A stretch of DNA of 64,000 nt from Schmidtea polychroa. Taxonomy: Eukaryota. The notes beneath the pieces are model-generated. The model searched no databases. It saw only the letters and a list, made by a program, of their open reading frames with translations, and was not told where the DNA came from. How positions within the stretch are numbered: position 1 is the stretch's first letter; each line of letters begins with the position of its first letter. Below are positions 5,696 through 54,031 of the stretch, piece after piece. The stretch spans positions 17,176,001-17,240,000 of the forward strand of contig CM097885.1 in assembly GCA_044892525.1 (NCBI GenBank). The letters are read 5' to 3'. The position numbers were made by a program, and so were the translations under genes.

Positions 5696-5799
5696 GCGCA
5701 CACCAACAAAATTCAGTCAAATCATACCGCGCACACAGACGCGATAGAGAAAACGCCAAACCAACTGCCAGTCAGAGGCAATCCCCCGCTGACTGGTCG

Positions 5800-19349: not shown

Positions 19350-19717
19350 TTTGCAAATATAGTTCCATGTCCTTTCATTCGTTTGTTTATACGTGATATT
19401 CCATGTCTTTTACGTTTTGGAGCATGAGCTGGAGCTGGAGCTGGAGCTGGTTTTTGAAACATACCTGCAACCCCGGGTAAAACTTTCCCTAATTCTGCTA
19501 AAGCATTTGTTTTTAGAGATGGTAATATTTTCTGTTCATTCATAATAACATCTTTTGCAGTTTTCATACCAAAACTACCGATACGTTTAAGAATAGGCAA
19601 TGCAAATCTACCAATTGTTCTCAACCATCCTGATCCGTACTGTTTACCAATAAAATATGGTAAATCACCACCAGATTGGCTACCACTATACATACTAATA
19701 ATATCAGAATTAGCCAT
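19346..19717 (-). CDS. Maverick small core-like precursor (copy 2)
   Basis: Protein identical to 31859-32230. Confidence 0.85.
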   Translation of the reverse strand: MANSDIISMYSGSQSGGDLPYFIGKQYGSGWLRTIGRFALPILKRIGSFGMKTAKDVIMNEQKILPSLKTNALAELGKVLPGVAGMFQKPAPAPAPAHAPKRKRHGISRINKRMKGHGTIFAK

Positions 19718-20040
19718 TTATTTTACGAAAATGTAATGTCAAATGAGTTTTTGGAAATTCGATTAATTGACCAGAATCATAACTTATATTTATTTCTATA
19801 TTGTTTATACAAGATGTTGAAACAGGTAAATACATGGGATTTTCTACATTGATTTGTACAACTTCATCATGATCATGTTTTTCAATCCATATAGATTTCA
19901 TTAAAGAAACACTAAAATCTCCAACAATAACAGGTGCCACGATATTACTGTAAATGAACATTTGCTGATGATGTTTAAGGATTTTCGGTTTGTTTGTTCC
20001 TTCACAAATTTGTTCATTTTGTGTACATATTGGTTTAGAC
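19710..20040 (-). pseudogene. Maverick minor capsid (penton) C-terminal fragment
   Basis: Matches the C-terminus of 32223-33290 with a 9-bp deletion (GSK). The ORF-track N-terminus is hAT TIR sequence. Confidence 0.9.
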
Positions 20041-22555: not shown

Positions 22556-22865
22556 CAAGGTCATTTAAACAAAGACCATGACTCATCAAGGTCATTCTCA
22601 AGGTCGTATGTCTCATACGATGACTCATCAAGGTCATTTTCAAGGTCATATGACTCATCCGATGAGTCATAAAAATTTTCAAGGTCATTTAAACAAAGAC
22701 CATGACTCATTCAAGGCCATTTCCAAGGTCATATGACTCATTCAAGGTCATTCTCAAGGTCATATGACTCATTCAATGTCATTCTCAAGGTCATATGACT
22801 CATACTATGACTCATCAAAATTTTTCAAGGTCATCTGAGTCATCGCGATGAGTCATCAAGGTCAT
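22556..22865. promoter_or_regulatory. Dense array of TCAAGGTCA and TGACTCA motifs in the Maverick terminal region
   Basis: About a dozen (T/C)CAAGGTCA-like and about eleven TGACTCA/TGAGTCA motifs in ~310 bp, plus AACAAAG. Confidence 0.6.
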
Positions 22866-23031
22866 ATTATTATTTTTAAAAATATTATTATTTTTAAAAA
22901 ATATTATTATTTTTAATTTTTTCAAAGTTCCCGTCAACGAAAATTAATAATCGATAGCTCATTTTAAAGCTCAATCCAAGGCCTTTCGAATGAGCCATAT
23001 ATCTTGTTATTAAGATTATTATTTCTAAAGA

Positions 23032-23080
<49 letters not shown>

Positions 23081-23387
23081 CTATATACACCGAGTCTATA
23101 TAATCCGAGTCTATCCGACAAAATATTTTGTCCCCCTATGGGTAATGCTCACAAGGGTACTGGTAAAATTAACAAAGGTAAACTAAATATTGATGTACTA
23201 CTATTCGCAGCAATATTGTTAGAAATTGGTATAGAAATCATTAGTAATAAATTTCTTAATAACTAAATTACTTTTGTTCTTACATTTATAAAATTGTGAT
23301 CGCCAATCAAAATATAGTTTTCAAAATGTAGAAATTGTAACCATCAAATGTATAATAAGCATGACTAGTAACCTTGCAAGCTGTTTA

Positions 23388-23598
<211 letters not shown>

Positions 23599-23824
23599 GT
23601 CATTGATATAGCTGCATGCTCACTGCAGACTATATAAAAATCACTATTAAATATAAAAAATTATAATAAAACAACAAATACTTGAAATAATTTAAAAAAA
23701 AAATCTGATTACAAATTTTTATTCAATATGTATATATATAAATACAAGTTATAATACATGTTATAATACAAGTTATAAATACAAGTTTTTGTAAATAAAA
23801 GTTTCTATACAATTTTCAGTTGTC

Positions 23825-26800
23825 TTATTGATCTTCATCCCATTCGCTGTCGTCGAAACTGGGACTTGGAGCTGCACTGAATTCCTCATCATATTCACTT
23901 AATTCGTCAACTCCTAAATTGTGCCCAAATGCGTAACTTATGTTTTTGCCTAGCCACGCGCGCTTATCATCATTATTACTTAGGGCAATTTTCGAATTTT
24001 TAAAAGTAAAAAGTTGGTGATTTCTAGTACCTATTCTAGTCTGCGGTACAGAAATCACCTGATTTGAATGAAAGCAATTTAGATATGTTTCATGATTTAT
24101 TGATGTCCCTGGTAATTTAACCCCCTTCGCTTTTACCGTTTCCTTACTACCTAAAAGACTATAACATTTAGGGCGTAAGAAAACCCATTCGGAATAACCT
24201 AATCCCTTGCTCTCATCTTTAAACTTCCCGATGACAGAGTCAAGGTTCCTATTATACAAGGGGTGTGTTGGATCGTAATTTGACGTATCCAATAAATTAT
24301 CAGAGATCATCTGAGGTAATAGAGTTGTTAATTTTAAATTTTTTATTTCCAAAAAGAAACTGTCGGTATCACCGGCAATAATATTTATAATACATTTATA
24401 TTGACGTCTGTACTTCTCCAAATCAATGTATTGGAGCTGGTACATCCGCAGTTTAGACAGATCTAGTACTGTTTGACCAATGTAGCTAGGTCTGTCTAAA
24501 CAAATTGAATCTTTTTCCAAATGTGCCGCAATCAGATCGTTATCGATTCTTATAGACTTTCTGAAAGTCGGCTTTGAGGAGTATACTATCATCTTTTCGG
24601 ATGAATTACACAACCTCAAATTCATTCGTTTTTTCAGATTTTCAACGGATTTACCGTACAGACTGTTATTATACAATTTAAACAAGTCCCTATATATCTC
24701 GCTAGTAGACTGAGATCGTAAAGTGGTGTTGGTGTCTATGTAGGATTTAAAGATAGGTCCTTGTTTAAACTTTATACATCTATGAATATTTACAACAACC
24801 GCACCTAATTCTATATACAATTTGAGAAGCCTCCAATGAAGAACATAGTTCCTCTTTGGCCAATGCGTAAGCATAAGCTTCTCAACTTTTGAATTAGGCG
24901 GGCACAACTTTTCCGGCGCAAGCGGAAAATCATTCAAAAAATCATGCACACATTCCGGAATATCGATATCGACCTCCATAGTATACCCATATGGAAGGTT
25001 ATCAATATCCGTGTTCATACATTCAAGTAAAACATCATTCAAGTTATTATTCACCCAAGAAAAATCACCATACGGAAGATTTTGGCTAAGAGCCCAACCA
25101 TACAGATTATTTATATCAATGTACAATAATTCTGTATCATCTGAAGTAGCCGTGTAATGTTTGTTAACAAATGTTAACCCACCCCGGATACCTCCCTCAT
25201 AGAAATTATACATTTCCATGTCCTGCAAAAGTTCTATGGGTTCCGTTAATGTCATAAGCGCTGAGGCCCATGACATACCGGGAATCCCGTAGAAATTAAG
25301 AGGATCCAGACCATTGTAAGCAATTGCCTTACCGCGGAATTGCTGAAAATAGTCTGCGAGGAGGTATACGTCCAATTTTAGGTAGATTAACATATAATCT
25401 AACAAATTATTACAGTTATGCTGACTCCACATTATTTGAGCCTCAGCGTACTGATCTTCCGTAACATCAGACCAAATAGGAGGTAATTCTAAAGTCGATT
25501 CAAGAACATCCAAAGAAGTAGCGAAATTATATGGAAAGATACCTTTAGAGTGAATCATCGACCCTTGAAAGACAGACGAAGTTAACGGAAAAGTAGTAAG
25601 TGTTTTCACAGCTTTTGCTAAAGAACAATTAACAAATTGCATGCTGTCAATAAAACGAACAGGCAATTTGTTAATATATGCAATTAAAGATATAAATTTT
25701 TCTGTAGAGGTAGGTATAATATTAAGTTCCCAAAGGGGAAAATCACTGAGACCATGTTTTAAAATATGGTGGAGGTCATAGCCTCGTAAATTATGAAAGA
25801 CTACTGGTAACAACTTATTAATCCTGCGAGAGACATTACATTTCCTACATGCCGCTCCGACATATCTACCTGTAAAATGGCAATGATCTCTCACAGGATT
25901 AATAATAGCTTTTTTACACAAATAACAAATAGTACTAGATCGAAAGGCACGCTCCTGAGCAAAAGACAAAGTAGACATACCTTTATGACCTTCAAGTTCA
26001 TAATATGGCAGGACAATTGTGACAGCAATTTCCTCCACTTTCCTCAAAAAATCCAAAATACAATTAGGTCCAAAAAAATAATAATAAAATTTAGTGTTTG
26101 TATAATTATTATTTAATAAAAGACCTGCTGATATGGGTAAATGTATTTGATGATATGTTTCATGTTCTGGTAAAACCGATTCAAAATCGGCATAAATTAC
26201 GAAGGGAGGTGTAACGGTTTTTGCGTAATCTGTGAATAATAAATCCTTATTTTTAGGAAGTGTATACAAGGTTGTGCCAGTCTGATTTTTACAGCATAGA
26301 GCAACATGCTGATCGAAAGCATTCTTATATCTAAAGCCATTTAAACAATGTGGGCACCAGTTACACCTTATTTGAACATTTACATTTTCATTTAAATGAC
26401 AATTCATTAATTTGTCCAAGTCTGTCACTGCCGTATAATGATATTTATCTTTATTACTCAAAAGTAATAAATAAATCGGCCTACCATCTATAACCTTGGA
26501 GCGATGTATGATATTAAGATGAGGGTGGTGAGCTACATAATTCTGAGAAATATCACTATCAGAACTGGCTGGATTATACGAAAGAACGTTTATGCTTAAT
26601 TTTAAATCACGATTTTTCCTTTCAAATTTGGGAATGTTACATAGCCTCATCGGGCAATCTGTGTCTTCATCATAATTTAATAGAGGTAAAAATTCTATAT
26701 ATTTGGCGGCTCTTTGGTGATTACGACCTATTTCTTCTCTTTTTAAAAGTGCAAGAATGCTATATAAGAAACACTTATGGTCGTTGTTTTTAACATTAAT

Positions 26801-28543
26801 TATTGCATGTTTTAATTTTAATGCAGATGGGGTTTTTATATAGCTATGTCCGGATAATCTACTAACGGGTGCGTATTTCGTTAAAATAAAATCTATCTCT
26901 AAAATATTTAATACTCGCCACGCGCTTCCTAAATAAGTAAATTACTCAATCTTTTCATTTAATTTGCTCACCCCCTCGTTTATAAAGTTTGCTGTAAAAA
27001 CTTGAGCATTGTTTGAAAAATAATTATCCTGGATCTCCCCATCTTTTTAAAATTTAATTAAAATTGCAAATTGAATTTTTACATTGCCCATCTTTTCTAT
27101 TTCCGCTATTAATCTTTCTTCAATTTTTGATGTTAGGGCTATTTTTACTAAGTTTTGATTTCTTATATCAAATTTTAAAGTTTTTCGCGATCCGTTCAAA
27201 TCGGATTCTACCATAGGTTCAAACAAAGAGCCGCCTATTTGATATATGTTGAAAGACGTTGAAGCTACACATTCATCATTGATGACTATCACTTCTTGTT
27301 GTGTAATGGGTGTGTGTTGTGTAATGGGTGCGTGTTGTGTGAAAGATGTTGAAGCTACACATTCATCTTTGCTGATGACTATCACTTCAGGTCGCGATAA
27401 TTTATTCGGAATATAATTTTTAATTAAACCAGCAGGTCTTTTAATCGAATCTTTTTTAATATTTATAATATCTTTTTTAATAATATTTATAGTATCTTTT
27501 TTAATAACATCTTTTTTAATAGAATCTGTTTTTTCTTTTATAATATTTTTTTTAATATTTTTTAAATCTTTTTTAATATCTTTTTTTATATCTTTTTTAA
27601 TAGTATTTTTTGGTAAATTTTTTGATAAATTTTTTTGTAATTTTTTTTTATTTATTTTTTTAAATAAAACATTTTTTGATATCGAAAATTGCCCTAAGTG
27701 ACTATGATGTTTATTAAAAAATTCCCTATATTTTATTTTTTCGCTCGTTACACATTTGGGGCATATAAAAAAGTTGACCGAATTAAACTTTTTTCGGTAA
27801 TATTTTCTCATTGTATCATGACAATCATCGTTATGACCAATTGAAGATTGGCAATAATTCGGGTATAGTATACCTGTTAAATAATAAAATTAAAATTTTA
27901 TTGTTTTTTCTATATAGAAAACTAATTGTTACTTCTACAAGGATTTATCATCATTTGTTATATAGTTCATTTGAATTAAATAACAAATGATGATAAATCA
28001 TTATAGAAAATAGGTTAATATATTCGATAGAATATTAGAGAGATTTTAGTAGACGGGGTCTGATTATTATTTATATATTATTATTATTATTATTTATATT
28101 ATTATTATTATTATTATTATATAAAAGAAAAGTAGCTGCATGCTCACTGCAGACTACTATGTAGCTGCATGCTTACTGCAAACTACTGTAGACAGGGTCT
28201 GATTATTATTTATATATTATTATTATTATTTATATTATTATTATTTATATTATTATTATTTATATTATTATTATTTATATTATTATTATTATTATTATAT
28301 AAAAGAAAAGTAGCTGCATGCTCACTGCAGACTACTATGTAGCTGCATGCTTACTGCAAACTACTGTAGACGGGGTCTGATTATTATTTATATATTATTA
28401 TTATTATTATTATTTATATTATTATTATTATTATTTATATTATTATTATATAAAAGAAAAGTAGCTGCATGCTCACTGCAGACTACTATGTAGCTGCATG
28501 CTTACTGCAAACTACTGTAGACGGGGTCTGATTATTATTTATA

Positions 28544-28613
<70 letters not shown>

Positions 28614-29748
28614 ATTATTATTATTATTTTAACTATTGTAGATGCACATTGCAAACTACAAGGATTTATAACCATAATTTGTAATCACTTTTTAAATATT
28701 TTGATAATAATAACTTTCAGAAACTTAGTATAATCATTTTCATCATAATTTTGGTTGTAAATCATTTTCATCATAATTTTCGTCATATTTTCATCATAAT
28801 TGATTTTCATCCTATTTTCATCATTTTCTTCATCATAAATTCATAATTTTCTTCATCATCATTTTCGTCATATTTTCATCATTTTCTTTATAAAACATAT
28901 AATCATTTTTCTTCATAATTTTTCGGTATATTTTCATTATAAATCATAAAATCATTTTCTTCAGAAGTTTCATCATAATTTTTATTAAAATATTTAAAAA
29001 AGTTTTTTATCAAAATATTTAAATAAGTTATTACAAATTTAACATATAAATAAAAAACAAAATATATATATAAAAATAAATATTTCTTACATTGTGATTC
29101 CATGTCGGAATCATTCTCAGAGATTTGCCCATCATTCTCTGAGATTTGATCATCATCCGATGAGATTTGCCCATCATTCTCTGAGATTTGATCATCATCC
29201 GATGAGATTTGCCCATCATTCTCACAGATTTCACCATCATCCGATGCGAGGACATTAATTTCTTCTTCGTCAATATCAACATTTAAAACATTTTCTGAAA
29301 TGAAAATTAATTTAATAGAAATAATAATAAAATTTACTTTTTTCTTTGAGAACTGGGGCATAATTAGGGGCATCAGTTTGCCCAATAAAGACGACATCAT
29401 CGTCGCTATTGTAAACATTTTCTGAATTGAAAAAAAAAATAATTTAATAAAAAAAATAATAATAAATTTACCAAAGATCTTATTAGGAGCATTACTTTCC
29501 CCGATAAAGACGACATCATCGTCGCTATTTGAAGCATTTTCTGAATTGAAAAAAAAAATTAATTTATTAAAAATTATAATAATAAATTTACCGAAGATCT
29601 TATCCACTGTTAATATCGAGTCATCTTCCGTTACATCGTACCAATCGAATGGTTCTAAAATAATAAAATAAAATATAATAAAATAAAATAAATTACCCAT
29701 TGTCGTCAAAAGATTTCTTAGAATTCCATTTTTATTATTGTTAGCCAT
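23825..29748 (-). pseudogene. polB: Protein-primed family B DNA polymerase; predicted 6-exon gene (~1506 aa) with two premature TAA
   Basis: Core 23825-26650 has IYADFES, FHNLRGYD, YIDINNLYG, KLYNNSLYGK, GDTDS and RPKCY, plus an endonuclease VII-like CYLC..DHCH.TG...CRKCN. The same frame extends upstream through TAA at 26944 and 27049 (GSAW, SYIKTP, AIINVKNNDHKCF) into ORF 27047-27811. Predicted exons 29748-29697, 29654-29592, 29540-29472, 29421-29338, 29294-29091, 27873-23825. Confidence 0.9.
28049..28620. repeat. Tandem repeat of ~150-180 bp units with variable TTA tracts, inside predicted PolB intron 5
   Basis: Three full units of gtagac(g/a)gggtctga-(tta)n-ataaaagaaaagtagctgcatgctcactgcagactactatgtagctgcatgcttactgcaaactact, plus a partial fourth. 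Confidence 0.9.
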
Positions 29749-30070
29749 TTAGATTTTTAAAATTGAAATTGAAATTTGAAAAATTTTGAAATAATTGTGA
29801 CAAATTTTAGATTTGTCAATGTTTATAAAGAGAATGAATATTTTCCTGTCCCAGCCAATGAGAATATAGACACACACACATATACATTGAATATTTTACT
29901 CTCTCAACCAATCACACGCATGCATGTATGTAATGTAAATCAGTCAGAATTACATGTGACTGCCTTTGTTAGTCATGCCTTTGTTAACTTGCACTGTGCA
30001 TGCCTCATGCAAAGGCAGTCTTTATGTTACAAATAATAATATTTATTAGAATAATAATAAAATTAATAAT

Positions 30071-30131
<61 letters not shown>

Positions 30132-30228
30132 TTAATAATAATAATATTAATAATAATAATAATAATAACACAACAACAAAGGAAAGGATACATTTATTAA
30201 ACATCAAATTTATTAAACATTTTTTTCT

Positions 30229-30614
30229 TTAAACATCAAATTTTTTGTACAATAACCAAGCTAAACAATGTTGACCGCATGTTTGGGTCAAAGGATTTTG
30301 AAACATAGTTTTATTATACACAATAGGTTTTCCCATTGTTTGTAGTTTTGATATCAACAAAGCTGGGTAATAGAAACCCATAGGATCGAACACGAATATA
30401 TTACCAGGTTTCACATATATAGCTATCCAATGTTCTCCACCAAGATGAGACGATTGAGTATTGACGATTATTGCTTGATTATTGCTCAAATATGGAATTT
30501 TATCAAGAGGAAAAACTCCAACAAATTCATTTCCCAATATCTGTTTTCCGATTTTATTGACCTGAACAGAACTATTTTAATAAATTAAACAGTATAAAAA
30601 ACAACTTACTCCAT
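30229..30614 (-). CDS. Adenain-like (C5) cysteine maturation protease, two exons
   Basis: Catalytic motifs GEHW, FDPMG and Q...TCGQHC. ATGGA (30614-30610) plus a 38-nt GTAAGT..TAG intron (30609-30572) gives MDSVQVNKIGKQILGNEFVGVFPLD. Confidence 0.9.
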
Positions 30615-30641
30615 GATAACTTTTTGTGTTTCTGTATACAT

Positions 30642-31862
30642 TTATACCAACACTGTTCTATTTGCAGTAATTTGAACTTCATTTTCAAATACTCCATATA
30701 TTATAACATGTACTGGTTCAGTAATAGCTTTTGCAAACTTTATATCCAGTCGTAAATTTCCATTTTGAGGTAATTGACTTTGATTTAAATCAAAATCAGG
30801 GGCTAAAACAAATGTAAAAAATGGGTATTTGCTTTTAAAATCTTCTAGTGTTATTCCGCAATTCAAATTTTTATCTAAATAACCCAGATTTCTAACAATA
30901 CTCTGCATATATGTCGCGCAGTAATTGTCATTCTCGAAATCTTGAATATATGTTTCTCTATAATCAGTATTTTTCGACAAAGTCAATGATGTAACACCAA
31001 AGTTTTTGAAAATTGAGCTGGACGCAGTATATGATCCATTATATTGTGCTTCACTTTGAAATGTTATCAGAATAAAATTAGGCATTCTTCTGTCACCAAA
31101 TATTTGTTCTTTATAGAATGATGAAGCACCTTTAGCAATAGCAAATTGTACAATTTCCTTTGTTTTTAATGGATAAATTGCATGTTTTGAATTAAGACCC
31201 AATTGATGACCTGCTAATACTGAAGGGTCTACTCGAACTCTTCTCACCAATAATTTTGCATCAACTAATTGACATATTGGTGCAGTAGTTGCACTAGTAA
31301 GAGATAATGCAGAATCAGACCTTTTCAATCTAATATGTACATTAACTCCCGGTAGTAAATATTTCGGTTGATCCATAAAATCAAGTTGTAATGATGAGCA
31401 CATGGTGAAAACCTTTGAGCCTTTTACCCACTTTTTTTTTTCATCATCACTGCCATAACCCATAGGAGTAAGACATGTATTTTTAGTATCGGAATTGTAA
31501 TTTAAAATAGTTTCTATTAATGCCTTGTGAATGAATGTATTATTTCCGCCCTCAATCTTGATATTATTAAATCCCAACACTGCATCTTTAAAAAGAGTAT
31601 GAAACAGGAAATTGTTCGGTATTACATCTGCATTGGCATCCAAAACTTTTCTATCTTTATCTACAACCTTAATCTGAACAGTCAATAAAGTATCGTTCAA
31701 ATCTAAATATTCGGTTTGTGAACCATTAATATAAAACTCGATATCGTTTCTACTATCTGTAATTGAATTCATAGGAAAAACTTCCTCAAATGCCCCAAAT
31801 TCTATTACAGCCTGGGGCGATGGTCTATCAAATATACATAATTCGGATTTACCACAAATCAT
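30642..31862 (-). CDS. Maverick major capsid protein (double jelly-roll, hexon-like)
   Basis: Intact 406 aa with KSELCIF, YLDLNDTLL, NNFLFHTLF, QPKYLLPGV, FVLAPD and GNLRLDIKF. Lies between core-like gene and protease; ATGA overlap with the upstream gene. Confidence 0.9.
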   Translation of the reverse strand: MICGKSELCIFDRPSPQAVIEFGAFEEVFPMNSITDSRNDIEFYINGSQTEYLDLNDTLLTVQIKVVDKDRKVLDANADVIPNNFLFHTLFKDAVLGFNNIKIEGGNNTFIHKALIETILNYNSDTKNTCLTPMGYGSDDEKKKWVKGSKVFTMCSSLQLDFMDQPKYLLPGVNVHIRLKRSDSALSLTSATTAPICQLVDAKLLVRRVRVDPSVLAGHQLGLNSKHAIYPLKTKEIVQFAIAKGASSFYKEQIFGDRRMPNFILITFQSEAQYNGSYTASSSIFKNFGVTSLTLSKNTDYRETYIQDFENDNYCATYMQSIVRNLGYLDKNLNCGITLEDFKSKYPFFTFVLAPDFDLNQSQLPQNGNLRLDIKFAKAITEPVHVIIYGVFENEVQITANRTVLV

Positions 31863-32230
31863 TTTGCAAATATAGTTCCATGTCCTTTCATTCGTTTGTT
31901 TATACGTGATATTCCATGTCTTTTACGTTTTGGAGCATGAGCTGGAGCTGGAGCTGGAGCTGGTTTTTGAAACATACCTGCAACCCCGGGTAAAACTTTC
32001 CCTAATTCTGCTAAAGCATTTGTTTTTAGAGATGGTAATATTTTCTGTTCATTCATAATAACATCTTTTGCAGTTTTCATACCAAAACTACCGATACGTT
32101 TAAGAATAGGCAATGCAAATCTACCAATTGTTCTCAACCATCCTGATCCGTACTGTTTACCAATAAAATATGGTAAATCACCACCAGATTGGCTACCACT
32201 ATACATACTAATAATATCAGAATTAGCCAT
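31859..32230 (-). CDS. Small basic core-like precursor with protease cleavage motifs
   Basis: QSGG|D and QYGSG|W followed by an amphipathic helix and a basic tail KRKRH. Conserved position before the MCP. Confidence 0.75.
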   Translation of the reverse strand: MANSDIISMYSGSQSGGDLPYFIGKQYGSGWLRTIGRFALPILKRIGSFGMKTAKDVIMNEQKILPSLKTNALAELGKVLPGVAGMFQKPAPAPAPAHAPKRKRHGISRINKRMKGHGTIFAK

Positions 32231-33290
32231 TTATTTTACGAAAATGTAATGTCAAATGAGTTTTTGAACCTTTTGGAAATTCGATTAATTGACCAGAATC
32301 ATCTCTTATATTTATTTCTATATTGTTTATACAAGATGTTGAAACAGGTAAATACATGGGATTTTCTACATTGATTTGTACAACTTCATCTTGATCATGT
32401 TTTTCAATCCATATAGATTTCATTAAAGGAACACTAGAATCACCAACAATAACTGGTTCCACGATATTACTGTAAATGAACATTTGCTGATGATGTTTAA
32501 GGATTTTCGGTTTGTTTGTTCCTTCACAAATTTGTTCATTTTGTGTACATACTGGTTTAGTCAATCCTAATGTTTTTGTCAAATTTGAGTCAAATTTAAC
32601 TTGACTAAGATTAGAATTTATACTAAATCTAAATACTTTATCTTTTTGAAGCTCAAAAACTGTTAAAATCTCGCTACAATTGTCACCTAAATAAGTTTGT
32701 AATTGTTCGAGGTCTGTAATATATAAATTATCTTTAAAAGTATATGCATGCTCTGTTATTTCAAAGTATGATAGCTTAAATTTGAATTCCACTAAATTAT
32801 TAGTTTTTGGAAGTGTAGAGAGATTTATTTTGACTGTATCATTAAATACATTACGTAAATCAGTAAATCCAAGACGTTTAGCATCAGCCACTGTAGAAAA
32901 TATAATTTCGAATGGCTTATTCAAGCAATTCATGTATAAATATTGACCATCATCATAAATTATAGGTTTCCTTGATTTCGATGAACTCGTCAAGTTATAA
33001 TTATCTTTATCAATAAGAACACTAATATATTCCGTTACTGCTACTTTCTTATTATATTCAATAACAGATTTGCTATAGATTGGGAATAAATTGTATACAA
33101 ATGTAAAATCCAACAGAGCAACTTCCCAGTCATTATCCAAATAGATGGGGTTTTGGAGTTCGATGATGAATTTGCTTGCTTGATTTTCTGGATGAATTAA
33201 TGGACAACTATTGCTCGGCAAAATAGTATAAAAATTCACTTTACTATGTCTTTTGCTGATATCCATGACGGGTTTTGATAACCATGCCAT
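32223..33290 (-). CDS. Maverick minor capsid protein (penton)
   Basis: FYTILPSNS, WEVAL, FIYSNIVEP.IVGD..VPL, NPMYLPV, IRDDSG..I.F, LHFR. The true start is probably near 33239 (GTG AAT TTT overlapping the integrase stop). Confidence 0.88.
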   Translation of the reverse strand: MAWLSKPVMDISKRHSKVNFYTILPSNSCPLIHPENQASKFIIELQNPIYLDNDWEVALLDFTFVYNLFPIYSKSVIEYNKKVAVTEYISVLIDKDNYNLTSSSKSRKPIIYDDGQYLYMNCLNKPFEIIFSTVADAKRLGFTDLRNVFNDTVKINLSTLPKTNNLVEFKFKLSYFEITEHAYTFKDNLYITDLEQLQTYLGDNCSEILTVFELQKDKVFRFSINSNLSQVKFDSNLTKTLGLTKPVCTQNEQICEGTNKPKILKHHQQMFIYSNIVEPVIVGDSSVPLMKSIWIEKHDQDEVVQINVENPMYLPVSTSCINNIEINIRDDSGQLIEFPKGSKTHLTLHFRKING

Positions 33291-33868
33291 TTGACATAGT
33301 ATTGTTTATCCTTACCGACCATTTTAGTTTTCAATATTTTTTGAATTCTAAATACTTTTGGGGGAGGAATGACTTGTAATTCCTGCTCATAAAATTTCCC
33401 CTGTACAATATTATTATCATTGTCTTTGATGACATACATTACAGGATTCTGTTTAGTATTTATTTTTGAAATTACAAAGACTTCATCACTCCAATTTGTA
33501 TCAAAATTTTTAATAAATGGTGATGCACTAATTTTACTAATTCTAACATGATCACCGACTTTATATTTAGGTTTTGTAATTTTTACAGATTTCTTAGAAG
33601 TCAATGATGTTTTTGATGTAATATCAACCGGTCTCAATCCATTCAGTCCTCGATGTGATGAATGATTATAACTTGTTATTATTTTCGGTAAAGCATTTAC
33701 CCATTTTTTATTACCTTGATGCACGAACAATTTCTTTAATCGATCTCTCAATGTTCGATTAAATCTTTCAACATGGGCAGCTTTGTATTGAGAATGTACC
33801 GAGTAGTGATTTATTTTCAGTTTATCGAGGATTTGCTTAACTTTACTATTGTAGAATTCTTTACGTAA

Positions 33869-33909
<41 letters not shown>

Positions 33910-34294
33910 CCAAATCTGTTTGCAAGTTATTAGGATGTCCATCTTTAAATAAAATATTAATTGCCTTGGACATTTCTTCTGCAGATTTAGCCTTGACTGG
34001 TATTGCTCGTGCAAACCTGCTGTATACATTAATACATGTTAAAATATATTTATTCCCATTGTTAATTTTCGAATAAGGTATCATCTCCATCAAATCCATT
34101 TGCCATAAATCGTCAATACCAAATGTTTTATACGCTCTTGTTGGAAATCTTTTCCGCATCGGTTTGTTCAAACTGTACGCAAGCTGATCTGATAACCACT
34201 TCTGGGTTTCTTTTTTCGAATTCGGAACTCTTTTGTTTTATTTTGCCACTCCACCGAAACCGGCTTCGTCTTCTGGGTTCGTCCAAATCTTCAT
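33236..34294 (-). pseudogene. rve (retroviral-like) integrase with C-terminal chromodomain; premature stop and a probable 45-nt intron
   Basis: The frame starts MKIWTNPEDEAGFGGVAK*NKRV..KWLSDQLAYSLNKP at ATG 34294, with TAA at 34240-34238. Motifs WQMDL, LQTDLG^KEF, VERFNRT and YYVKWHGY. The insert at 33909-33865 is GT...TTTTAC. Confidence 0.9.
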
Positions 34295-34352
34295 TACAAC
34301 AAGAAGATTTAAAATTAAATTTAATGTCGGGCAATGAAGGATTAGCACCCAT
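34128..34352 (-). CDS. Small ORF overprinting the integrase 5' end, with lipidation-like N-terminus
   Basis: MGANPS...SSCC. The ATG lies directly after the stop of the upstream gene. Confidence 0.4.
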   Translation of the reverse strand: MGANPSLPDIKFNFKSSCCNEDLDEPRRRSRFRWSGKIKQKSSEFEKRNPEVVIRSACVQFEQTDAEKISNKSV

Positions 34353-34355
34353 TGT

Positions 34356-34888
34356 TTATGATTGATTTCCTACAACTCCACCTAATAATGATAATGCCAG
34401 AGGTATCAATGCACCAATAAATCCACCTTGTTGTTTATATATAATTTTCCTCATTTGCTTACGATTTTTATTATTTACTAAAGATAACAATGGTTTCCTA
34501 TGTTTGCTCAATAATTGCTTTTTTGATTTACTGATTTTAATTTTGCCTTTGACTACTTTAAGTATAATATTGAGTAAATCATCGACAACAAAATTTGGGA
34601 ATGATTGCAATATATTCATTCTTTTCATACTCGGGGCCTTTAACAATGCATTAAAAAATGGAAAACTGCGATGATTTTTAACTACTTTTTTACTGGTTTT
34701 ATGGGTTTTACGTTTTTACGTTTAGGTTTAGGATTTTTCGAAATAAGATTCATTGCAGAAAAATTTTCAGTTACAAGATTTTTAGATGGTGTATAACTAG
34801 TTGTTGGTGGAATCTTTGGAACTTTAATACTCTTTCTAATACTTTTTCTTAATTTCCTAATATTTTTCACCCTTGCTTTTAGAAACAT
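34356..34888 (-). CDS. Basic core-like protein ending in QQGG|F plus a hydrophobic tail; two ORFs, possibly one frameshifted gene
   Basis: 34356-34646 ends QQGGFIGALIPLALSLLGG. Its frame is open upstream to ~34714, where a 1-nt shift in an A run would join it to Lys/Arg-rich ORF 34682-34888. Confidence 0.65.
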
Positions 34889-34906
34889 TATTATTCATAG
34901 AGGTTT

Positions 34907-35533
34907 TCAACTTTGTTTATAAACCATGGCACCTTTTGGGTTGAAAATATCTGTTTTTACTCGTAAATCATCGGGGCATTGTTGTGTGAAATCAAGAAAT
35001 ATATATCCATGAGGTATTTTTGTAGCATCTTGAAATGCACTGATAAGAAAATTACGATTGTTAGGGTATGCTTGACGTGCAAGAAAATCAATCACTGTTG
35101 CATCTCTAGGATTCTTGAAAATAACTAAATATTGTACATTTAAATTACGTGTTCGATGTGCCCCACCTTGATGAAATAGATTTTGTGTTATGAAAATAAC
35201 TGTTACACCGACATGTCTGCTGATCTTTGTAAATAAATTATTAAAATCTTTTTCTTTATTAGCTTCTTGATACAAATCATCAATAATAATGACATCACCC
35301 TTCTTTAATCGGCTGGACCAGTTTTTATCAAATCCCTTTACTATTTTCATGTTTTTTAATTTACAGAAACTTGATTGAGTTAATCCATGTTCTTCATCAG
35401 CACCCCTATGCCAATAAATCCTGTTGAATTTTGATTTGAATAAATTGGATTTTAGTAATTTACAAACAAATAATGTTTTTCCACTACCACTCGGACCAAC
35501 GATTTGGTATACTGCATCATTTCTTAATTCCAT
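34907..35533 (-). CDS. A32/FtsK-like genome packaging ATPase
   Basis: Walker A GPSGSGKT, Walker B IIIDD, SRH..VTVIFITQNLF, FKNPRD and PHGYIFLD. Confidence 0.93.
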   Translation of the reverse strand: MELRNDAVYQIVGPSGSGKTLFVCKLLKSNLFKSKFNRIYWHRGADEEHGLTQSSFCKLKNMKIVKGFDKNWSSRLKKGDVIIIDDLYQEANKEKDFNNLFTKISRHVGVTVIFITQNLFHQGGAHRTRNLNVQYLVIFKNPRDATVIDFLARQAYPNNRNFLISAFQDATKIPHGYIFLDFTQQCPDDLRVKTDIFNPKGAMVYKQS

Positions 35534-35594
35534 TTCAAAGATTTTATAAATGTGTATTTGTTTATATTCGATGATTTAATGAACTCGTGCTCAA

Positions 35595-35606
35595 TTTATA
35601 TATAAA
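35595..35606. promoter_or_regulatory. Palindromic TATA box in the divergent ATPase/TBP intergenic region
   Basis: TTTATATATAAA is self-complementary and sits in the 99-bp gap between the two start codons. Confidence 0.5.
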
Positions 35607-35632
35607 GACTAATTTTCATAAATGATTTAATA

Positions 35633-36070
35633 ATGTTAGCAAATATAAATTATCGAGGAAATTTTGATGTATCGAATATGAGGTTCCCACCAGGGAAACC
35701 CCAGCAAATTATCGATAGAAGTGGGAAATATCCGATAATATTTTTCAAGACTGGTAAATGCAGAATCATGGGATGTAAGAAACCTTTGGATATTAATAAA
35801 TTACAATATCGAATAAATAATATTACAATCCAATCAATTACCGTTACTATGGATATGGGAAATAGTATCAATCTATATAACATGTCGAAAAAATGTGATT
35901 GTATGTTTGAACCGGAATTGTTTCCGGCACTAAGACTATTAAAATATAACCCTATATGTGTCAACGTGTTTGCTAGTGGAAAGGTTGTCATGCTGGGGTT
36001 GAGAAATTTGGAGTATAGAGAATTTGTTGACAATGTTCGAAATGAGATAATTTCATTGGTCGATTTCTAA
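35633..36070 (+). CDS. TATA-binding protein (TBP)-like protein encoded within the Maverick
   Basis: Repeat 2 ITIQSIT...INL...FEPELFPAL...VNVFASGKVVMLG compares with TBP FKIQNMV...IRL...YEPELFPGL...LLIFVSGKVVLTG. Repeat 1 IIFFKTGKCRIMG compares with ALIFSSGKMVCTG. Intact 145 aa. Confidence 0.88.
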   Translation: MLANINYRGNFDVSNMRFPPGKPQQIIDRSGKYPIIFFKTGKCRIMGCKKPLDINKLQYRINNITIQSITVTMDMGNSINLYNMSKKCDCMFEPELFPALRLLKYNPICVNVFASGKVVMLGLRNLEYREFVDNVRNEIISLVDF

Positions 36071-36144
36071 TTGGTTAATTTCTAATTGGTTATTGATTGA
36101 TTTAAACAAACGGTTTTTTGTTTAGGATTCATTTTTTCAACACC

Positions 36145-36564
36145 ATGTACAAATTACCAAGCGCTGCAAACCTCATGAAAGATATCGACGATTATGGTAA
36201 ATTTTAATTTTTTTTATTTTCACATTATTTACTATTTATTATTTTAGAAAAATATTTAGAAGTTATGATCAATAGGATAAAATATTATTATCCTCAAATT
36301 ATTGAAATTATCAAGGATCGAGAAGCAGAAATAATTCCGGACCTCATTTTCTACACAACTCAAATTAGAATAATGTTGGTATTTCACCAGTTCTTGTGGT
36401 ATATAAAGATAAACAGAACCATCAAACAAATGGAGCCGGAGTACCAGTGCATCATCGGATGCTCATGCTGTGCCGATCGATATCGGCGATATGTCGAATG
36501 GGAGTTAGTGAAAACTCTGAGAAGGTTTCACTACTCCCGGATTGTAGATTTAGGTTACCAATAA
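36145..36564 (+). CDS. Hypothetical Maverick accessory protein, two exons
   Basis: Kozak-like caccATG at 36145. A 51-nt GTAAAT..TTTTAG intron (36197-36247) joins in frame: MYKLPSAANLMKDIDDYEKYLEVMINR...CIIGCSCC. AATAAA overlaps the stop. Confidence 0.7.
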
Positions 36565-36649
36565 ATGTATTTTTATTGTGTTTTATCTTTTTTATATTTG
36601 AAATAATAATAGTAATAATAATAATAATAATAGAAATAGTAATAATAAA

Positions 36650-36688
<39 letters not shown>

Positions 36689-36927
36689 GAAATAATAAAA
36701 CATTAATAATAAAAAATTAATAATAATAATAATAGAAATAATAAAACATTAATAATAATAAAACATTAATAATAAAACATTAATAAAAATAATAGAACAT
36801 GTGACAATGCAACATCAATGCATTTTGAATGCAATTTAAACAAAGACATGCTATAATCTGATTGGTTGATAGGCATGAGTCAAAGGTATAAAAACCCTGT
36901 AACATTTAAATTTATTCATTATTCACG

Positions 36928-37590
36928 ATGACCAAGAAAATTTCAAGCACCGAAAAACCTAAAGAAATGGTACAACCAGTTCAAATGTTCCACAACTACA
37001 AAATGTATTTTTTGTAAGAAGAAATCAATATGAAATTGGTTGCACCAGTCAAGCTAATTCCAACTAAATTTCAATTCTTATCCGGCACGCTTTCAATGAT
37101 TGATGTCAAAACTATTGATGATGTTTTTAAACGGATAGATTCGAATCTATCGTGTAATCAACATGCATGGTTCAACAATAGATATGCAAGATTTTATGAT
37201 GCTTTTGATGAAATCAGTTTCAAAGAAAATGAATTTATGCTAAATGCAATTCAACAAAGTACTATTGCATTTCATTTGAGATAACTTTTGGAAGGAAAAT
37301 TAACTTGTGTTTGACGTTAGAACAAGCGTCGGAATCCTGTTAAGGCGTAAATTTGACGAGAAAACACAAAGCAAAGTAAGCTGCAATAAGAAAAAAGAAG
37401 TAACAAACAATTTAATTTGGTGAAAGCGTTTGTGAGGAAAGAACTTAAAATATGGATAAAAATCATTTGAAATCATAAAATTTATTTCTCCGCGCCAAGT
37501 GAACCTTCAAAAAAGAAATATTCGGAAACTGGGAAGTATTGAATGCCTGAAGAAGTAGCATAAGTTTTAAAGGAAGGAGAGTTATATTTG
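36928..37590 (+). pseudogene. Degraded hypothetical Maverick accessory gene
   Basis: TATAAAA at 36887 and a reverse CCAAT upstream. ATG 36928 is in frame with ORF 37030-37284 across TAA at 37015. Further stops follow; the 3' end is approximate. Confidence 0.45.
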
Positions 37591-37975
37591 TAATATTAAA
37601 ATATATATTGAAACAACTTTATTTCAATAATTCTGTTTGTTTAAAAATTGGATTAAGAGGAAAACTTTTCAAACTTTGTAATTTTTAAATATTTGTAATT
37701 TTAATGACGACTTCTTTAGATGTAACTATTAAAATCCAGGAATTACTAATGTTTTATGTTAGTCCCCTTTATCAGCCAAAAGAATACAACATTTAGTCAA
37801 AATAACCACTTAAATAATAAGTCTTAATCTCATCTTTGAACTTTCCAATAATAGAATCAAAGTTTTTAGAATATAAATGTTTGAAATATCCAGCACCATC
37901 GATTTGTGATAAATATAAAAAACTTTGATTGATAGTCTAAAGTTTTGACAAAATAAAGAAATGAAAATAAAAGAA

Positions 37976-38180
37976 ATTATTATAAGAACTTTTTTCAATT
38001 TTCACCACTGATTCCTTTTCAATTGACATTGTATTTATCAAAAAAAATAGACTATGAATCGGTAAAGATATCGATGTTTTTTTGATATATTTACGGATTC
38101 ATAGTCAAGCTTTTTTAATAAATACAATGTCAATTGAAAAGAAATCAATGGTGAAAATTGAAAAAAGTTCTTATAATAAT
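37976..38180. mobile_element. Palindromic MITE/foldback-like element
   Basis: Long imperfect inverted arms around a very short centre (attattataagaacttttttcaattttcacc...ggtgaaaattgaaaaaagttcttataataat). Confidence 0.7.
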
Positions 38181-38509
38181 ATTATTATTGTTAATTTAAT
38201 TAATTACTTATTATAATAAAAATGGAGTATAATTATATTTTATTAATATAAAATGTTTTTTTCAACATTTTTTTAAAACATTTTTTAAACATTAAGTAAA
38301 TATTTTCATTTCCCCAATTCTCCCTTGGACATTCCAATAAATTGGGAATTGTAAGAAATTTAATTCCCATTTTTTCTCAAAAATTAGAATAATGAATTTC
38401 TTTCTATATATTTTTATAAATATTCTTTACGACAAATCCATTTGAACTTTCTTTTGTTATTTTAGATTTGTTTTTTAATTTATATTTTTTATTTCTACAA
38501 TTATTTTTC

Positions 38510-41500
38510 TTATTCACAAAATCTTATTTCATTTCTTAGACTTTCTTGGTAAAGTAAATCGTTTCGAGCGTCTCTCAATTGATAATGTTTATTTCCTCTG
38601 CAAACCTCTTCATTGAATTTGTCTCTTACAACTTTGCGCGGTATTTCTGGTCTATCAGGAAGAATTCTCTGCTGATTTCTTGGCAGTTGAGAATTCCACT
38701 GAATCCATTTTTCTCGGCAGATGTTCTCATGGATTCCAATGGAATGTCTTGTGAAATACCTTCCACAAATGTAACAAACAATTCCTGGCATTGAGCCAAG
38801 TGGTTTTCTATTTGACTCTTTTAGAGCTTCCTCGCATTCTTCATAATTGCTTATGATAAGCTGCTTTTGAGTTCCATTGCACCATTTTTGGTGTTCGTCG
38901 ACTCTTTGTTTAGGAATCCATTTTTGGCACATATTACAACAGAAATTGATAAAGTCTTCTTGGAAATTTGTTTGCAAGGATAAATTTTTCATAATTTCCT
39001 GCATTGGAATATCAACACAGTTCGATGTTTTTACTATACTTGGAATAAACGGTTTATATTTGATATGGTAACACTTCAGGAGGATATCAACCAGTTCGAT
39101 GAATAGGGTATTCATCACAGCATCGTTTACCAAAAAGTCCACTCTATCACTTAACATAGTATTCAATGTTTCTTTAGTTTCCTTTACCGTGGGGATCTTA
39201 AATCCAGATAGTTCATTAAATCTATCATTTTTATTCGATTTGTCTGAATCCTCTGGACATTTTAATTCAGAATTTCCTCCCTTCCCTTTATTATCACATG
39301 TCTCATGGCATTTGCAATTACACGTATCTTTACATTTGTTTCTCCCTTTATTTTTGCAATCGCAAATGCAGGAATCTTTACAGGTGCAATGTTCTTTTTC
39401 CTTGCATGCACATGGGCAAGTTTTATTAGTTCCTTTATCAGCTGCCTTATTTTTTTCTAAACAAGGACACTGGCATTTGTCACTATCTTTATCTTTATTT
39501 TTGTCTTTATCTTTATCATTATCTTTATCTTCTTTTTTATCTTTTTTTCCAGTTTCATTGTCTTCATCCATACATTTTACAACAGGTATTTTTGTTGATA
39601 AGCTTCTATCTAGTCGTCCAAATGATTTACATTTAATGGAGACATCAATTGATGGAACTTTTCCTTTGCCCGTTTCACTTGGTGGACATCCATAAACTAA
39701 ATCTTGATCCATGTGAGTAATTACCGGGGAGTCACATATAACATTTTCAGTTTCAGGATTGCTGTACAACATATCATTTTCATTTTTTGGAACTATTTCT
39801 GAAGTAGCACTTGTGGTTTCTTTATAATTAATGTCTACACTATCCTTGTCCTCTCTAATCACCAAGCGAGAATTAAAACTGCTTACAGCTTTATCGGTAC
39901 TTGCTTCATTTATGTCGTTATAAGATCCTTCTTCATAAGGTAAATCTATTTCACGCTGATTGAATGAAACAGCTTTTAATTCTTTTGAAGGCCCTCCTTT
40001 ACCGGTTGGATCTTTCAAATCTTTTTCTAATATTTTCTCTCCTCGTCGTTTATTTTCGTCTACAACTGCTTTTACTGATTGATATGGTAAATATATAACT
40101 TTGTTCATGATTTCAATTATTTCGGTTTCATCCGGTAATTGAAGTGATAATTTATGACCCTCGCGTCTACTCTTAGGGTGATTAGCTTCAATAGACTCTT
40201 CGGGATTATCATTTAGCATTTGCCTATTTGTTAAGTATTCCATATCGAATCGCTTATATGCAGAAGGAAATTCATACTTATGATAGTCTTCATAGATGTG
40301 AGGCTCGTTAAGCTTAACTTCTCCATGATATTTATGAGGAATTCCTTCCCATGGTGAATCGCCATACTGAGGTTTTGAATACCTTTTATCTCCTTTTATC
40401 TTAGCAGGAGATTTACTGTCTGGAGATTTTTTAGGTGCATCTTGAAACGCTTTTTGTGGTTTAGTGGTTTTCATAGTATCATAGGTTGTACCTTCACTTT
40501 CGATCTTTGGAGCGGGTTTTACATTCTCAAATATCTGTTTAGGTATTTTTCTTTCACTTTCGATCTTTGGAGCGGGTTTTACATTCTCAAATCTCTGTTT
40601 AGGTATTTTTCTTTGACAACACTTCGATGGACCCAATTGATCACTATCTGCTCGTCGAAAATCCTTTTGGTTGCGATACTTTGGATCATCACTTTCAATT
40701 TGTTGAATAGTTTTCAAACTGTCATATTTTGACCGTGGAGACTTTCTCTGACAACAACTAGATGGGTTTTCACTTTGGGTTCGAGGTTGACTTCTATAAT
40801 GCTTTGAATCGTCACTTTCTATACTCTGTATGGGTTTTAAACTATCATAATTTGGGTTAATAGGTCTTTTTTGGCAACATTTTGACGGTCCACCTTTATT
40901 TCTCTTAAATTTGGGTTTGTCAGTTTTCTCCAGTGTATCTAAGTCGTCATAATGAGATTTGGGAGATTTCCGTTGACAGCATCTTGTAGTATCACCTTGA
41001 GCCGATGGTTTGGTATTCTTTTGTGGTTCATAATTATATTTGGGGGGTTTATAGCTGTCTTTCACAGTTGTCTTTCTGCAGCATTTAAACAAACAAGTAC
41101 TATTCTTTCTCGATTGTGGGAAATCTTGAATGTTTTTACTTTTCTTTACAGATGAAAATCTGCGTATACTTCTATCGTCTGTCCTAACTGATACTTTTGA
41201 ACAACATTTTGAAGACGTCTTTTCAGAGGAATCTATCGGTTTTATTTCTTTTATTTTATCAAAATCAACTTGATATGTAGATTCTTCCTTATCCCCAAAG
41301 CTTTCAACTACATTTTCTGTTTCATATTTCTCTCTCTTATCTTCCTGAATTGTTTTGATTGGGGTTTTTGATTTCTCCTTTTTGCGACACTTATAAGGAA
41401 TACATATGCAAGATGACTTGTTAGAATTGGTTGACTTTTTAATTTCTTGTTTAACCTGTTTTTTTGGAACAGGAGTTGGAATTTTATCACTTTCATCTAC

Positions 41501-53986: not shown

Positions 53987-54031
53987 CTAAAAGCACCTTT
54001 ATATCACTTTCCATGAGATAACACGTTTTAC

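What the first reader, a model, noticed from the sequence alone, without database searches (positions are those of the whole stretch)
27874..36247. Viral genes systematically split by short host-type spliceosomal introns
Seen: GT-AG introns that restore sensible frames in the protease (38 nt, GTAAGT..TAG, supplying the missing ATG), the gene at 36145 (51 nt) and the PolB 5' region (42, 51, 50, 43 and 1217 nt), plus a 45-nt intron-like insert in the integrase. Sizes match the host citrate synthase intron (45 nt). Established: Polinton core genes are generally described as single ORFs. Inference: this lineage depends on host splicing and ORF-based annotation would misread it. MCP, penton, ATPase and TBP appear intronless.
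Basis: partly seen in the sequence, partly recalled or inferred. Interest (0 to 1): 0.85.

Follow-up and report, generated by a model that had tools for sequence, protein, structure and literature searches.

The report
Intron-bearing Polinton virus lineage
A virus-like jumping element (a Polinton) with over a thousand copies in an animal genome has its DNA polymerase, protease and integrase genes interrupted by short segments with intron-type ends that the host's splicing machinery likely removes, which is unusual because the core genes of these elements are described as intron-free.

Summary
All eight segments exist at the stated sizes. Across genomic copies they behave like introns. GT/AG ends stay fixed while lengths drift out of frame: protease 51 of 51 copies, 37-41 nt. 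In the PolB 5' region, 49 of 53 distinct exons are multiples of three, against 16 of 49 introns. The protease intron separates the ATG from the gene and sits at the same place in three sister families and five metagenomic contigs at about 50% protein identity. It is absent from an outgroup, so it is old and inherited with the element. The integrase intron is young: a (TAT)n tract inside the TDxGxEF motif, which is contiguous in 120 of 120 homologues. It is fixed in over 1,300 copies and absent from two sister families. Capsid, ATPase and TBP-like genes are unbroken. Splicing itself is not shown: four public runs gave no matching joint, and some contigs read into the protease intron. The window copy is a damaged, truncated member. 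The scan noted intron-rich Polintons before in two other genomes. Verdict: new variant of a known kind, interest 0.72.

The parts
22556..37233 (.). Polinton/Maverick copy; left terminal-repeat remnant at about 22556-23164, right end missing beyond about 37233 (full copies about 18-19 kb)
29697..29748 (-). PolB predicted exon 1 (52 nt, carries the ATG)
29655..29696 (-). PolB predicted intron 1, 42 nt, phase 1 (short introns 37-52 nt across copies)
29592..29654 (-). PolB predicted exon 2 (63 nt)
29541..29591 (-). PolB predicted intron 2, 51 nt, phase 1
29472..29540 (-). PolB predicted exon 3 (69 nt), acidic repeat with DDDVVFI
29422..29471 (-). PolB predicted intron 3, 50 nt, phase 1; tandem duplicate of intron 2 with its exon (89% over 122 nt)
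29338..29421 (-). PolB predicted exon 4 (84 nt), acidic repeat with DDDVVFI
29295..29337 (-). PolB predicted intron 4, 43 nt, phase 1
29091..29294 (-). PolB predicted exon 5 (204 nt, acidic 21-nt repeats)
27874..29090 (-). PolB predicted long intron, 1217 nt, phase 1 (965-1604 nt in 38 measured copies); same position in sister families B and C
23825..27873 (-). PolB main exon (protein-primed family B polymerase with endonuclease VII-like domain); broken in this copy near 27047 and 26944
30610..30614 (-). Protease predicted exon 1 coding part: ATG plus two bases (a second in-frame ATG lies at 30641 in this family)
30572..30609 (-). Protease predicted intron, 38 nt, phase 2; 37-41 nt in 51 copies; same position in sister families and metagenomic relatives
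30229..30571 (-). Adenovirus-type cysteine protease, exon 2 (PF00770)
30642..31862 (-). Major capsid protein, single ORF (double jelly-roll by atlas look-alikes)
31859..32230 (-). Small conserved basic ORF (PZ-like, name recalled), single ORF
32223..33305 (-). Likely minor capsid protein, single ORF; identity inferred from position and size, atlas look-alikes unnamed
33865..33909 (-). Integrase predicted intron, (TAT)n tract, 45 nt, phase 0, inside the TDxGxEF motif; non-canonical AC end in this copy, AG at 1,746 other places
33236..34294 (-). Retroviral-like integrase with chromodomain; premature stop near 34240 in this copy
34907..35575 (-). A32-like packaging ATPase, single ORF
35606..36070 (+). 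TBP-like gene, single ORF
36145..36196 (+). Gene of no known family, predicted exon 1 (52 nt)
36197..36247 (+). Predicted intron, 51 nt, phase 1; 47-51 nt in 45 copies; same position in sister family B
36248..36564 (+). Gene of no known family, predicted exon 2
53987..54031 (-). Host citrate synthase intron, 45 nt (comparison)

Best explanation
This is a high-copy animal Polinton whose polymerase, protease, integrase and several accessory genes carry short AT-rich GT..AG segments that are likely spliceosomal introns removed by the host spliceosome, so the element would need host splicing to copy and integrate itself. The introns are of three ages. (1) Old and inherited with the element: the protease intron just after the ATG, the long PolB intron and the intron of the gene at 36145. 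(2) Multiplied in place: the PolB 5' exons are phase-1/phase-1 units that duplicate in tandem together with their intron, giving 4-9 upstream exons and a variable acidic N-terminal tail. (3) Young: the integrase intron, gained in the ancestor of families A and D at a GGTA proto-splice site, probably by a short duplication or repair insertion followed by TAT slippage. Shown: positions, ends, conservation, phases, absence from relatives, purifying selection on the integrase exons. Inferred: splicing, the joining of the 5' exons to PolB, and the mode of gain.
For: Ends are fixed and lengths free of frame in 51 of 51 protease and 45 of 45 matched 36145-gene copies. Non-3n indels against the window copy: protease intron 43 of 50 copies against 0 in exons (exon 2 identity was a selection criterion); 36145 gene 23 of 30 in the intron against 1 in exons. 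PolB 5': 38 of 51 copies have full phase-1 stop-free chains; 49 of 53 distinct exons are 3n against 16 of 49 introns; GC 35% against 8%. The protease intron has the same position and phase in families B, C and D and in 5 of the 6 metagenomic contigs that hold the protease start, with unrelated inner sequence (37-47 nt). These form one clade at 100/100 support, and the intronless L147 lies outside it. The long PolB intron is at the same codon in B and C. Intronless relatives begin Met-x-x-Cys right there and share the following Cys/His motif, which lies upstream of the first Met (residue 21) of the main exon. Integrase: 120 of 120 homologues are contiguous; B and C are contiguous; the donor-side pattern occurs at 1,313 places and the AG-ending pattern at 1,746, against 2 for AC; no length under 42 nt was seen, matching host short introns of 42-47 nt; dN/dS is 0.12-0.15 on both exons between families A and D, which both carry the segment.
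Against: No spliced molecule was seen. In four runs guessed to be RNA, none of the 15 joints shown (31 not shown) matches a proposed intron. Contigs of X1 and X3 read into the protease intron, and the PolB 5' region was skipped as a repeat. All 65 integrase segments measured in fetched loci are multiples of three and 64 have no stop, so read-through is formally possible. Short protease introns of 37-38 nt are below the smallest host intron I found (42 nt, 9 candidates only). Ten of 48 parsed PolB chains failed: 4 with a frameshift or stop, 6 where my parser met a variant site. Length differences in T runs could partly be assembly error.
Confidence: 0.85

Rival explanations
1. The short introns are real, but the five 5' exons form a separate small acidic gene that ends inside the '1217-nt intron', and PolB starts at its own first Met in the main exon.
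For: There is an AATAAA 104 nt into the long segment. Several database PolB relatives are called from the matching internal Met (P0139, P0140, P0142, P0149, P0153). The 5' exons are not alike in sequence between families A, B, C and L139.
Against: The 20 codons before that Met are stop-free and conserved in A, B and C, and they align with the true N-terminus of L144, P0150, P0151 and P0155. Donor, acceptor and phase are kept in all three families. AATAAA is common by chance in such AT-rich DNA.
Confidence: 0.1
2. The integrase segment is not an intron but a coding microsatellite expansion that inserts 13-70 or more isoleucines after the catalytic Asp. Family A integrase would then be dead and the family mobilised by the intronless integrases of families B or C.
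For: All lengths are 3n, 64 of 65 have no stop, and no RNA joint was seen. Intronless sister integrases are present in the genome.
Against: The GT and AG ends fall exactly at the limits of the part missing from 120 of 120 homologues. AG is kept at 1,746 places against AC at 2. No length under 42 nt was seen although slippage spans 45-306 nt. dN/dS is about 0.13 between A and D. 3n lengths follow from a 3-nt repeat unit and a 3n founder.
Confidence: 0.07
3. The segments are decay in dead integrated copies (host AT-rich insertions and slippage) and only look like introns.
For: The window copy is itself damaged. The genome is full of (ATT)n tracts.
Against: The same positions and phases recur in families and metagenomic contigs at about 50-75% protein identity, in hundreds of near-identical recent copies, and in copies whose remaining frames are open.
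Confidence: 0.02

Closest known systems
Polintons/Mavericks of vertebrates and Caenorhabditis (PMC8097293; bioRxiv 10.1101/2022.07.12.499685; passages read)
   Same: Same core gene set (pPolB, integrase, ATPase, protease, two capsid genes), terminal inverted repeats, 6-bp target duplication, about 19 kb.
   Different: Both papers state that the core genes are intronless (in nematodes introns are only in cargo genes). Here pPolB, protease and integrase carry predicted introns.
Introner-containing polinton-like proviruses of dinoflagellates (PMC12166617; abstract and passages read)
   Same: Spliceosomal-type introns inside integrated polinton-like elements.
   Different: Those are mobile introner transposons, mostly inserted after integration and under-represented in coding regions. 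Here the introns are unrelated to each other in sequence (apart from local tandem duplicates), are fixed in whole families and are inherited across a clade.
Punuivirus, a latent giant virus of Chlamydomonas (bioRxiv 10.64898/2026.10.09.758095; passages read)
   Same: Host-type introns in part of an integrated virus's genes (61 of 506), enriched in the latency set and missed by the first annotation.
   Different: A nucleocytovirus in an alga, shown with RNA data. Here a 19-kb Polinton in an animal, with introns in replication, integration and maturation enzymes and no RNA proof yet.
Adenovirus E2B polymerase and pTP (PMC2794291; annotation table seen in a passage)
   Same: A relative of Polintons whose polymerase and pTP get their start from a distant 9-nt exon, like the ATG exon of the protease and the 5' exons of PolB here.
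   Different: In that table the adenovirus protease is one unspliced ORF; the introns are kilobases long and shared between genes, not host-minimal introns. No homology of intron position was tested.
Adintovirus-type PolB (database name of P0241)
   Same: Family B polymerase with an endonuclease VII-like domain; 31% identity over the searched part.
   Different: Distant. The word search of the adintovirus paper (PMC8502044) found no mention of splicing or of spliceosomal introns.

Membership tests
Polinton/Maverick | [quoted passage not shown] | tested here: met
   Close homologues carry PF03175 and a distant one is named adintovirus PolB. The query itself matched only Endonuclease_7, weakly, and no solved structure.
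Polinton/Maverick | Retroviral-like integrase | tested here: met
   PF00665 at E 1.5e-5 (below the curated cut-off, with the insert in place) plus chromodomain; all 120 listed homologues carry PF00665.
Polinton/Maverick | Adenovirus-type cysteine protease and A32-like packaging ATPase | tested here: met
   PF00770 and PF04665 above their cut-offs.
Polinton/Maverick | Double jelly-roll major capsid protein | tested here: met
   Atlas look-alikes at 0.97-0.98 with PF21738 (the tool rates recognition as weak). No Pfam or PDB sequence match. No fold was predicted.
Polinton/Maverick | Single jelly-roll minor capsid protein | tested here: inconclusive
   Only unnamed look-alikes; assigned by position and size.
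Polinton/Maverick | [quoted passage not shown] | tested here: met
   Inverted repeats of 500-1,400 nt in 8 of 10 copies. One copy with both ends in view has AGTAG..CTACT termini and a GGTCAA duplication. The window copy lacks its right end.
Polinton/Maverick (as described in vertebrates and nematodes) | Intronless core genes (a described trait, not part of the definition) | tested here: not met
   Predicted introns in pPolB, protease and integrase.
U2-type spliceosomal intron | GT..AG ends with host-like donor and AT/pyrimidine-rich body | tested here: met
   Donors GTAAAT, GTAATT, GTAAGT, GTAAGA and acceptors CAG, TAG; the same types occur in host chaperonin introns.
U2-type spliceosomal intron | Removal restores collinearity with intronless homologues | tested here: met
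   Integrase 120 of 120; protease and PolB N-termini.
U2-type spliceosomal intron | Removed from the RNA | tested here: inconclusive
   No matching joint shown; the runs are only guessed to be RNA and are kept as contigs.
Introner (intron-generating transposon) | Many near-identical introns at unrelated sites | tested here: not met
   Within the element the introns are unrelated except for local exon-intron tandem duplicates. A genome-wide search for intron copies was not made.

The most novel reading that the evidence does not exclude
A whole clade of animal polintoviruses has carried host-type introns for a long time and uses splicing as a switch. The protease cannot even start without it, the integrase intron is an in-frame, stop-free tract whose retention would give an inactive poly-isoleucine enzyme without triggering decay, and the polymerase N-terminus expands and contracts by exon-intron duplication of a SUMO-binding-like motif, while the bulk virion genes stay intron-free. 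Host control of these junctions would then gate replication, integration and particle maturation.
Probability: 0.25. Interest if true: 0.88.

Novelty: new variant of a known kind. Interest (0 to 1): 0.72.

Why it matters
Papers on animal Polintons describe the core genes as intronless, and surveys count 'intact' elements by single ORFs (PMC8097293). An intron-bearing clade would be scored as degraded or mis-called, as database entry P0121 already is. Introns inherited across a clade imply long-term transcription in the nucleus by host machinery, which bears on whether Polintons are self-sufficient nuclear viruses or virophage-like. The integrase intron is a dated intron gain: the intronless state survives in sister families of the same genome and more than 1,300 copies are there to study. 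That makes it a test case for how new introns arise and for the minimum intron length. Each junction is testable by RT-PCR.

Tried and rejected
RNA evidence: one search listed no holder on record as RNA. laid four runs guessed to be RNA. It showed no joint at a proposed intron (15 shown, 31 not shown), contigs reading into the protease intron, and one contig spanning the divergent ATPase/TBP pair, which looks like DNA. It skipped 29423-29699 as repeat, and the 1217-nt intron's acceptor lay outside the stretch given. I treat it as inconclusive. IMG/VR scan with the capsid alignment: 80 pattern matches, no relative. Cluster look-up for a spliced protease among database members: four unnamed members, sequences not examined. 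An exact search for an intron-free form of the family A integrase site found 0 places (one exact pattern, so weak). The integrase lengths were inflated by an off-target anchor and were redone. A strict regular expression for the PolB N-terminal motif matched 0 of 33 homologues; the alignment uses 8 of them plus L144, chosen by eye. A dN/dS test of PolB exon 2 returned nothing because my pattern failed. PDB sequence searches for PolB and capsid found nothing useful. I rejected the idea that the window's AC-ended integrase segment marks a non-canonical subfamily: only 2 places have it.
Full report
The element. The window lies in a 781-Mb, AT-rich genome with four very large contigs. Between about 22556 and 37233 it holds a Polinton: pPolB, protease (PF00770), major capsid (double jelly-roll look-alikes), a small basic ORF, a likely minor capsid, integrase (PF00665, chromodomain), A32-like ATPase, a TBP-like gene and an unknown gene at 36145. 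At least 150 places encode an identical protease exon 2, and a pattern from the integrase occurs at 1,313 places. I fetched 50 of the 150 listed copies, all plus-strand hits spread over the ORF-length classes. Eight of the 10 copies fetched whole have terminal inverted repeats, and one with both ends in view has AGTAG..CTACT termini and a 6-bp duplication. The window copy is damaged: it has a premature stop in the integrase near 34240, breaks in PolB near 27047 and 26944, and no right end.

Observation. All eight segments are there at the stated sizes, as is the 45-nt host citrate synthase intron. The capsid, PZ-like, ATPase and TBP-like genes start at a Met in line with their relatives and run unbroken.

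Protease. The 38-nt segment follows ATG plus two bases. In 51 of 51 copies it begins GTAAGT and ends TAG, at lengths 37 (19 copies), 38 (22), 39 (4), 40 (4) and 41 (2). Exon 2 identity was how these copies were found, so its constancy is not evidence. Three other Polinton families live in the genome: B (integrase 71%, PolB 58% identical), C (integrase 68%, PolB 58%) and D (integrase 88.5%, no PolB in the two copies fetched). All four copies viewed (1 B, 2 C, 1 D) have the intron at the same base with different inner sequence. Of 11 metagenomic loci, six include the protease start. Five (L139, L141, L144, L145, L146; 49-58% identical) have ATG, two bases, GTAAGT, 37-47 nt, AG; L147 starts at a plain Met. 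A capsid tree of 12 rows puts the intron-bearing rows in one clade (100/100) and L147 with L148 outside (midpoint root, small sample). The intron is therefore older than the split of these families and travels with the element. Database proteins show the annotation problem: P0121 is 99% identical but called through the intron from a wrong start, and P0124, P0127 and P0136 have similar odd hydrophobic N-termini (their DNA was not seen).

PolB. Five upstream exons precede the main exon in the window, all joined in phase 1 and each stop-free. Of 51 copies, 48 could be parsed and 38 have a complete phase-1, stop-free chain (for four of them the last acceptor lay beyond the fetched stretch). Four have a frameshift or stop, and six stopped my parser at a variant site. 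Among distinct sequences, 49 of 53 internal exons but only 16 of 49 short introns are multiples of three (Fisher p 1e-10; the sequences are related, so this overstates the odds). Short introns are 37-52 nt at 8% GC against 35% in exons; the long one is 965-1604 nt in 38 measured. Exon number runs from 4 to 9 because a 99-nt exon and its 42-nt intron duplicate in tandem. Families B and C have, in one copy each read by eye, short phase-1 introns and a long one ending at the same codon. L139 has three short phase-1 introns at its PolB 5' end, and L144 has none. The main exon's first Met is residue 21. The 20 residues before it carry a Cys/His motif that aligns with the true start of L144, P0150, P0151 and P0155, which begin Met-x-x(-x)-Cys. 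This is the main argument that the upstream exons belong to PolB. The repeated exons encode D/E-rich stretches with VVFI, VVFL or IIFL, which resemble SUMO-interacting motifs (recalled, not tested).

Integrase. The segment sits after TDL and before GKEF, a motif that is contiguous in 120 of 120 listed homologues, in families B and C (30 loci) and in six metagenomic loci. In family A it is GT, a (TAT)n tract and TTTAG. The AG-ending pattern occurs at 1,746 places and the window's AC form at 2; one copy, L064, has lost the donor. Lengths are 51-306 nt in 65 fetched stretches and 45-306 nt in 61 coordinate pairs (partly the same copies), all multiples of three, and 64 of 65 have no stop. Family D has a 42-nt, less regular version, and A and D are sisters (100/99). 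Both exons show dN/dS of 0.12-0.15 between A and D (three comparisons), so the segment-bearing integrase stayed under selection. In the commoner form both ends share TTTAGGTA; in a subfamily including the window (20 chosen copies) only GGTA is shared. That fits gain at a proto-splice site by duplication or break repair (PMC3443670, passages), but that review warns that repeats flank old introns as often.

Other genes. The intron at 36197-36247 keeps GT..AG in 45 of 45 matched copies, at 47-51 nt, and is at the same place in family B. Non-3n indels against the window copy fall in the intron in 23 of 30 copies and in the exons in 1. In the part missing from the window, three more genes show such introns: 41-45 nt in an acidic ORF (8 of 10 copies), 44-47 nt in a RING gene (8 of 10) and 44-45 nt in a Bcl-2-like gene (8 of 10).

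Host comparison. A filtered scan of ten chaperonin loci gave nine candidate introns: 42, 42, 44, 45, 46, 46, 47, 72 and 84 nt, with donors such as GTAAAT, GTAAGT and GTAAGA. The filter only looked at about 31-93 nt, so this is a comparison, not a distribution.

Against the reading. No spliced RNA was seen. No holder is on record as RNA. In four runs guessed to be RNA, none of the 15 joints shown matches (31 not shown), and contigs of X1 and X3 run into the protease intron. One contig spans two divergent genes, so DNA or unprocessed RNA is likely, and the PolB 5' part was skipped. The integrase segment could be read through in frame. The 37-38 nt protease intron is shorter than any host intron I found.

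Literature. Nine searches; seven concerned Polintons and introns, and their listings showed no report of fixed introns in the core genes of animal Polintons. I read word-search passages, not whole texts, of 14 papers and no supplements. PMC8097293 and 10.1101/2022.07.12.499685 call the core genes intronless. PMC12166617 reports introners in dinoflagellate polinton-like proviruses, mostly inserted after integration. 10.64898/2026.10.09.758095 reports introns in latency genes of an integrated giant virus. PMC2794291 lists adenovirus polymerase and pTP joined to a 9-nt exon. PMC8502044, PMC10748475, PMC6431247, PMC12220804, PMC4028283, 10.1101/2024.01.15.575659, 10.1101/2022.07.28.501842 and 10.64898/2026.07.28.741278 showed nothing on the point in the passages returned. 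Two key papers were not held and Repbase could not be searched. Two earlier notes of this scan describe intron-rich Polintons in other animal genomes; I did not test them, and they are not independent support.

Verdict. The segments are real features of an active-looking Polinton clade and very likely spliceosomal introns (0.85). It is a member of the Polintons and a variant in gene structure. What this case adds is the layered history: an old start-codon intron shared across a clade, a polymerase N-terminus that grows by exon-intron duplication, and a young microsatellite intron in the integrase active-site motif with intronless sisters in the same genome. Interest 0.72, held back by the lack of RNA proof and by precedents in adenoviruses, dinoflagellate elements and punuivirus.

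Noticed in passing
window 35606-36070 (+): The Polinton encodes a TBP-like protein (PF00352, E 7e-15), also present in families B, C, D and in metagenomic contig L139. I did not check whether this is known for Polintons.
   Followed up: partly
L031 2054-2406 (+) and downstream: Accessory gene with weak likeness to Bcl-2 proteins (8 of 9 PDB hits are Bcl-2 family, best E 0.11). A 44-nt GT..AG segment separates it from a stretch ending WIEANGG, which resembles a BH2 motif (recalled).
   Followed up: partly
L032 7998-8534 (+): RING-finger gene (PF13920, E 1e-10) near the PolB end of full copies, with a 44-47 nt predicted intron after its first codons; missing from the window copy.
   Followed up: partly
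L133-L138: Family D copies have near-identical capsid and ATPase genes to family A, but both copies fetched lack PolB; they may be non-autonomous.
   Followed up: no
window 18404-20038: A second, partial copy of the same Polinton family (97% identical over the capsid region, with an internal deletion), next to a zinc-finger transposase-like ORF at 21118-22170 (PF18658).
   Followed up: no
L130-132, about 18050-18000 of the side-by-side stretch (minus strand): Family C has a further GT..AG segment upstream of the PolB ATG, possibly a 5'-UTR intron.
   Followed up: no
L127 about 5420-6920: A 1.5-kb insertion interrupts the ATPase of one family C copy; it has no GT..AG ends at first sight and may be another transposon.
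   Followed up: no
window 38510-45715 (-): A single 2,401-codon open frame with no Pfam match, low-complexity and Cys-rich, ending in zinc-finger-like repeats; probably one very large host exon.
   Followed up: no
L144 6740-7420 (-): A separate ORF upstream of PolB repeats the PolB N-terminal Cys/His motif; L143 and L149 have two tandem minor-capsid-like genes.
   Followed up: no
L187-L199: Many genomic places match only positions 311-454 of the chaperonin model, inside long open frames (up to 1,377 aa), which suggests a chaperonin fragment carried by a repeat.
   Followed up: no
window 37959-38197: A 240-nt imperfect palindrome (85%) just beyond the truncated right end of the element.
   Followed up: no
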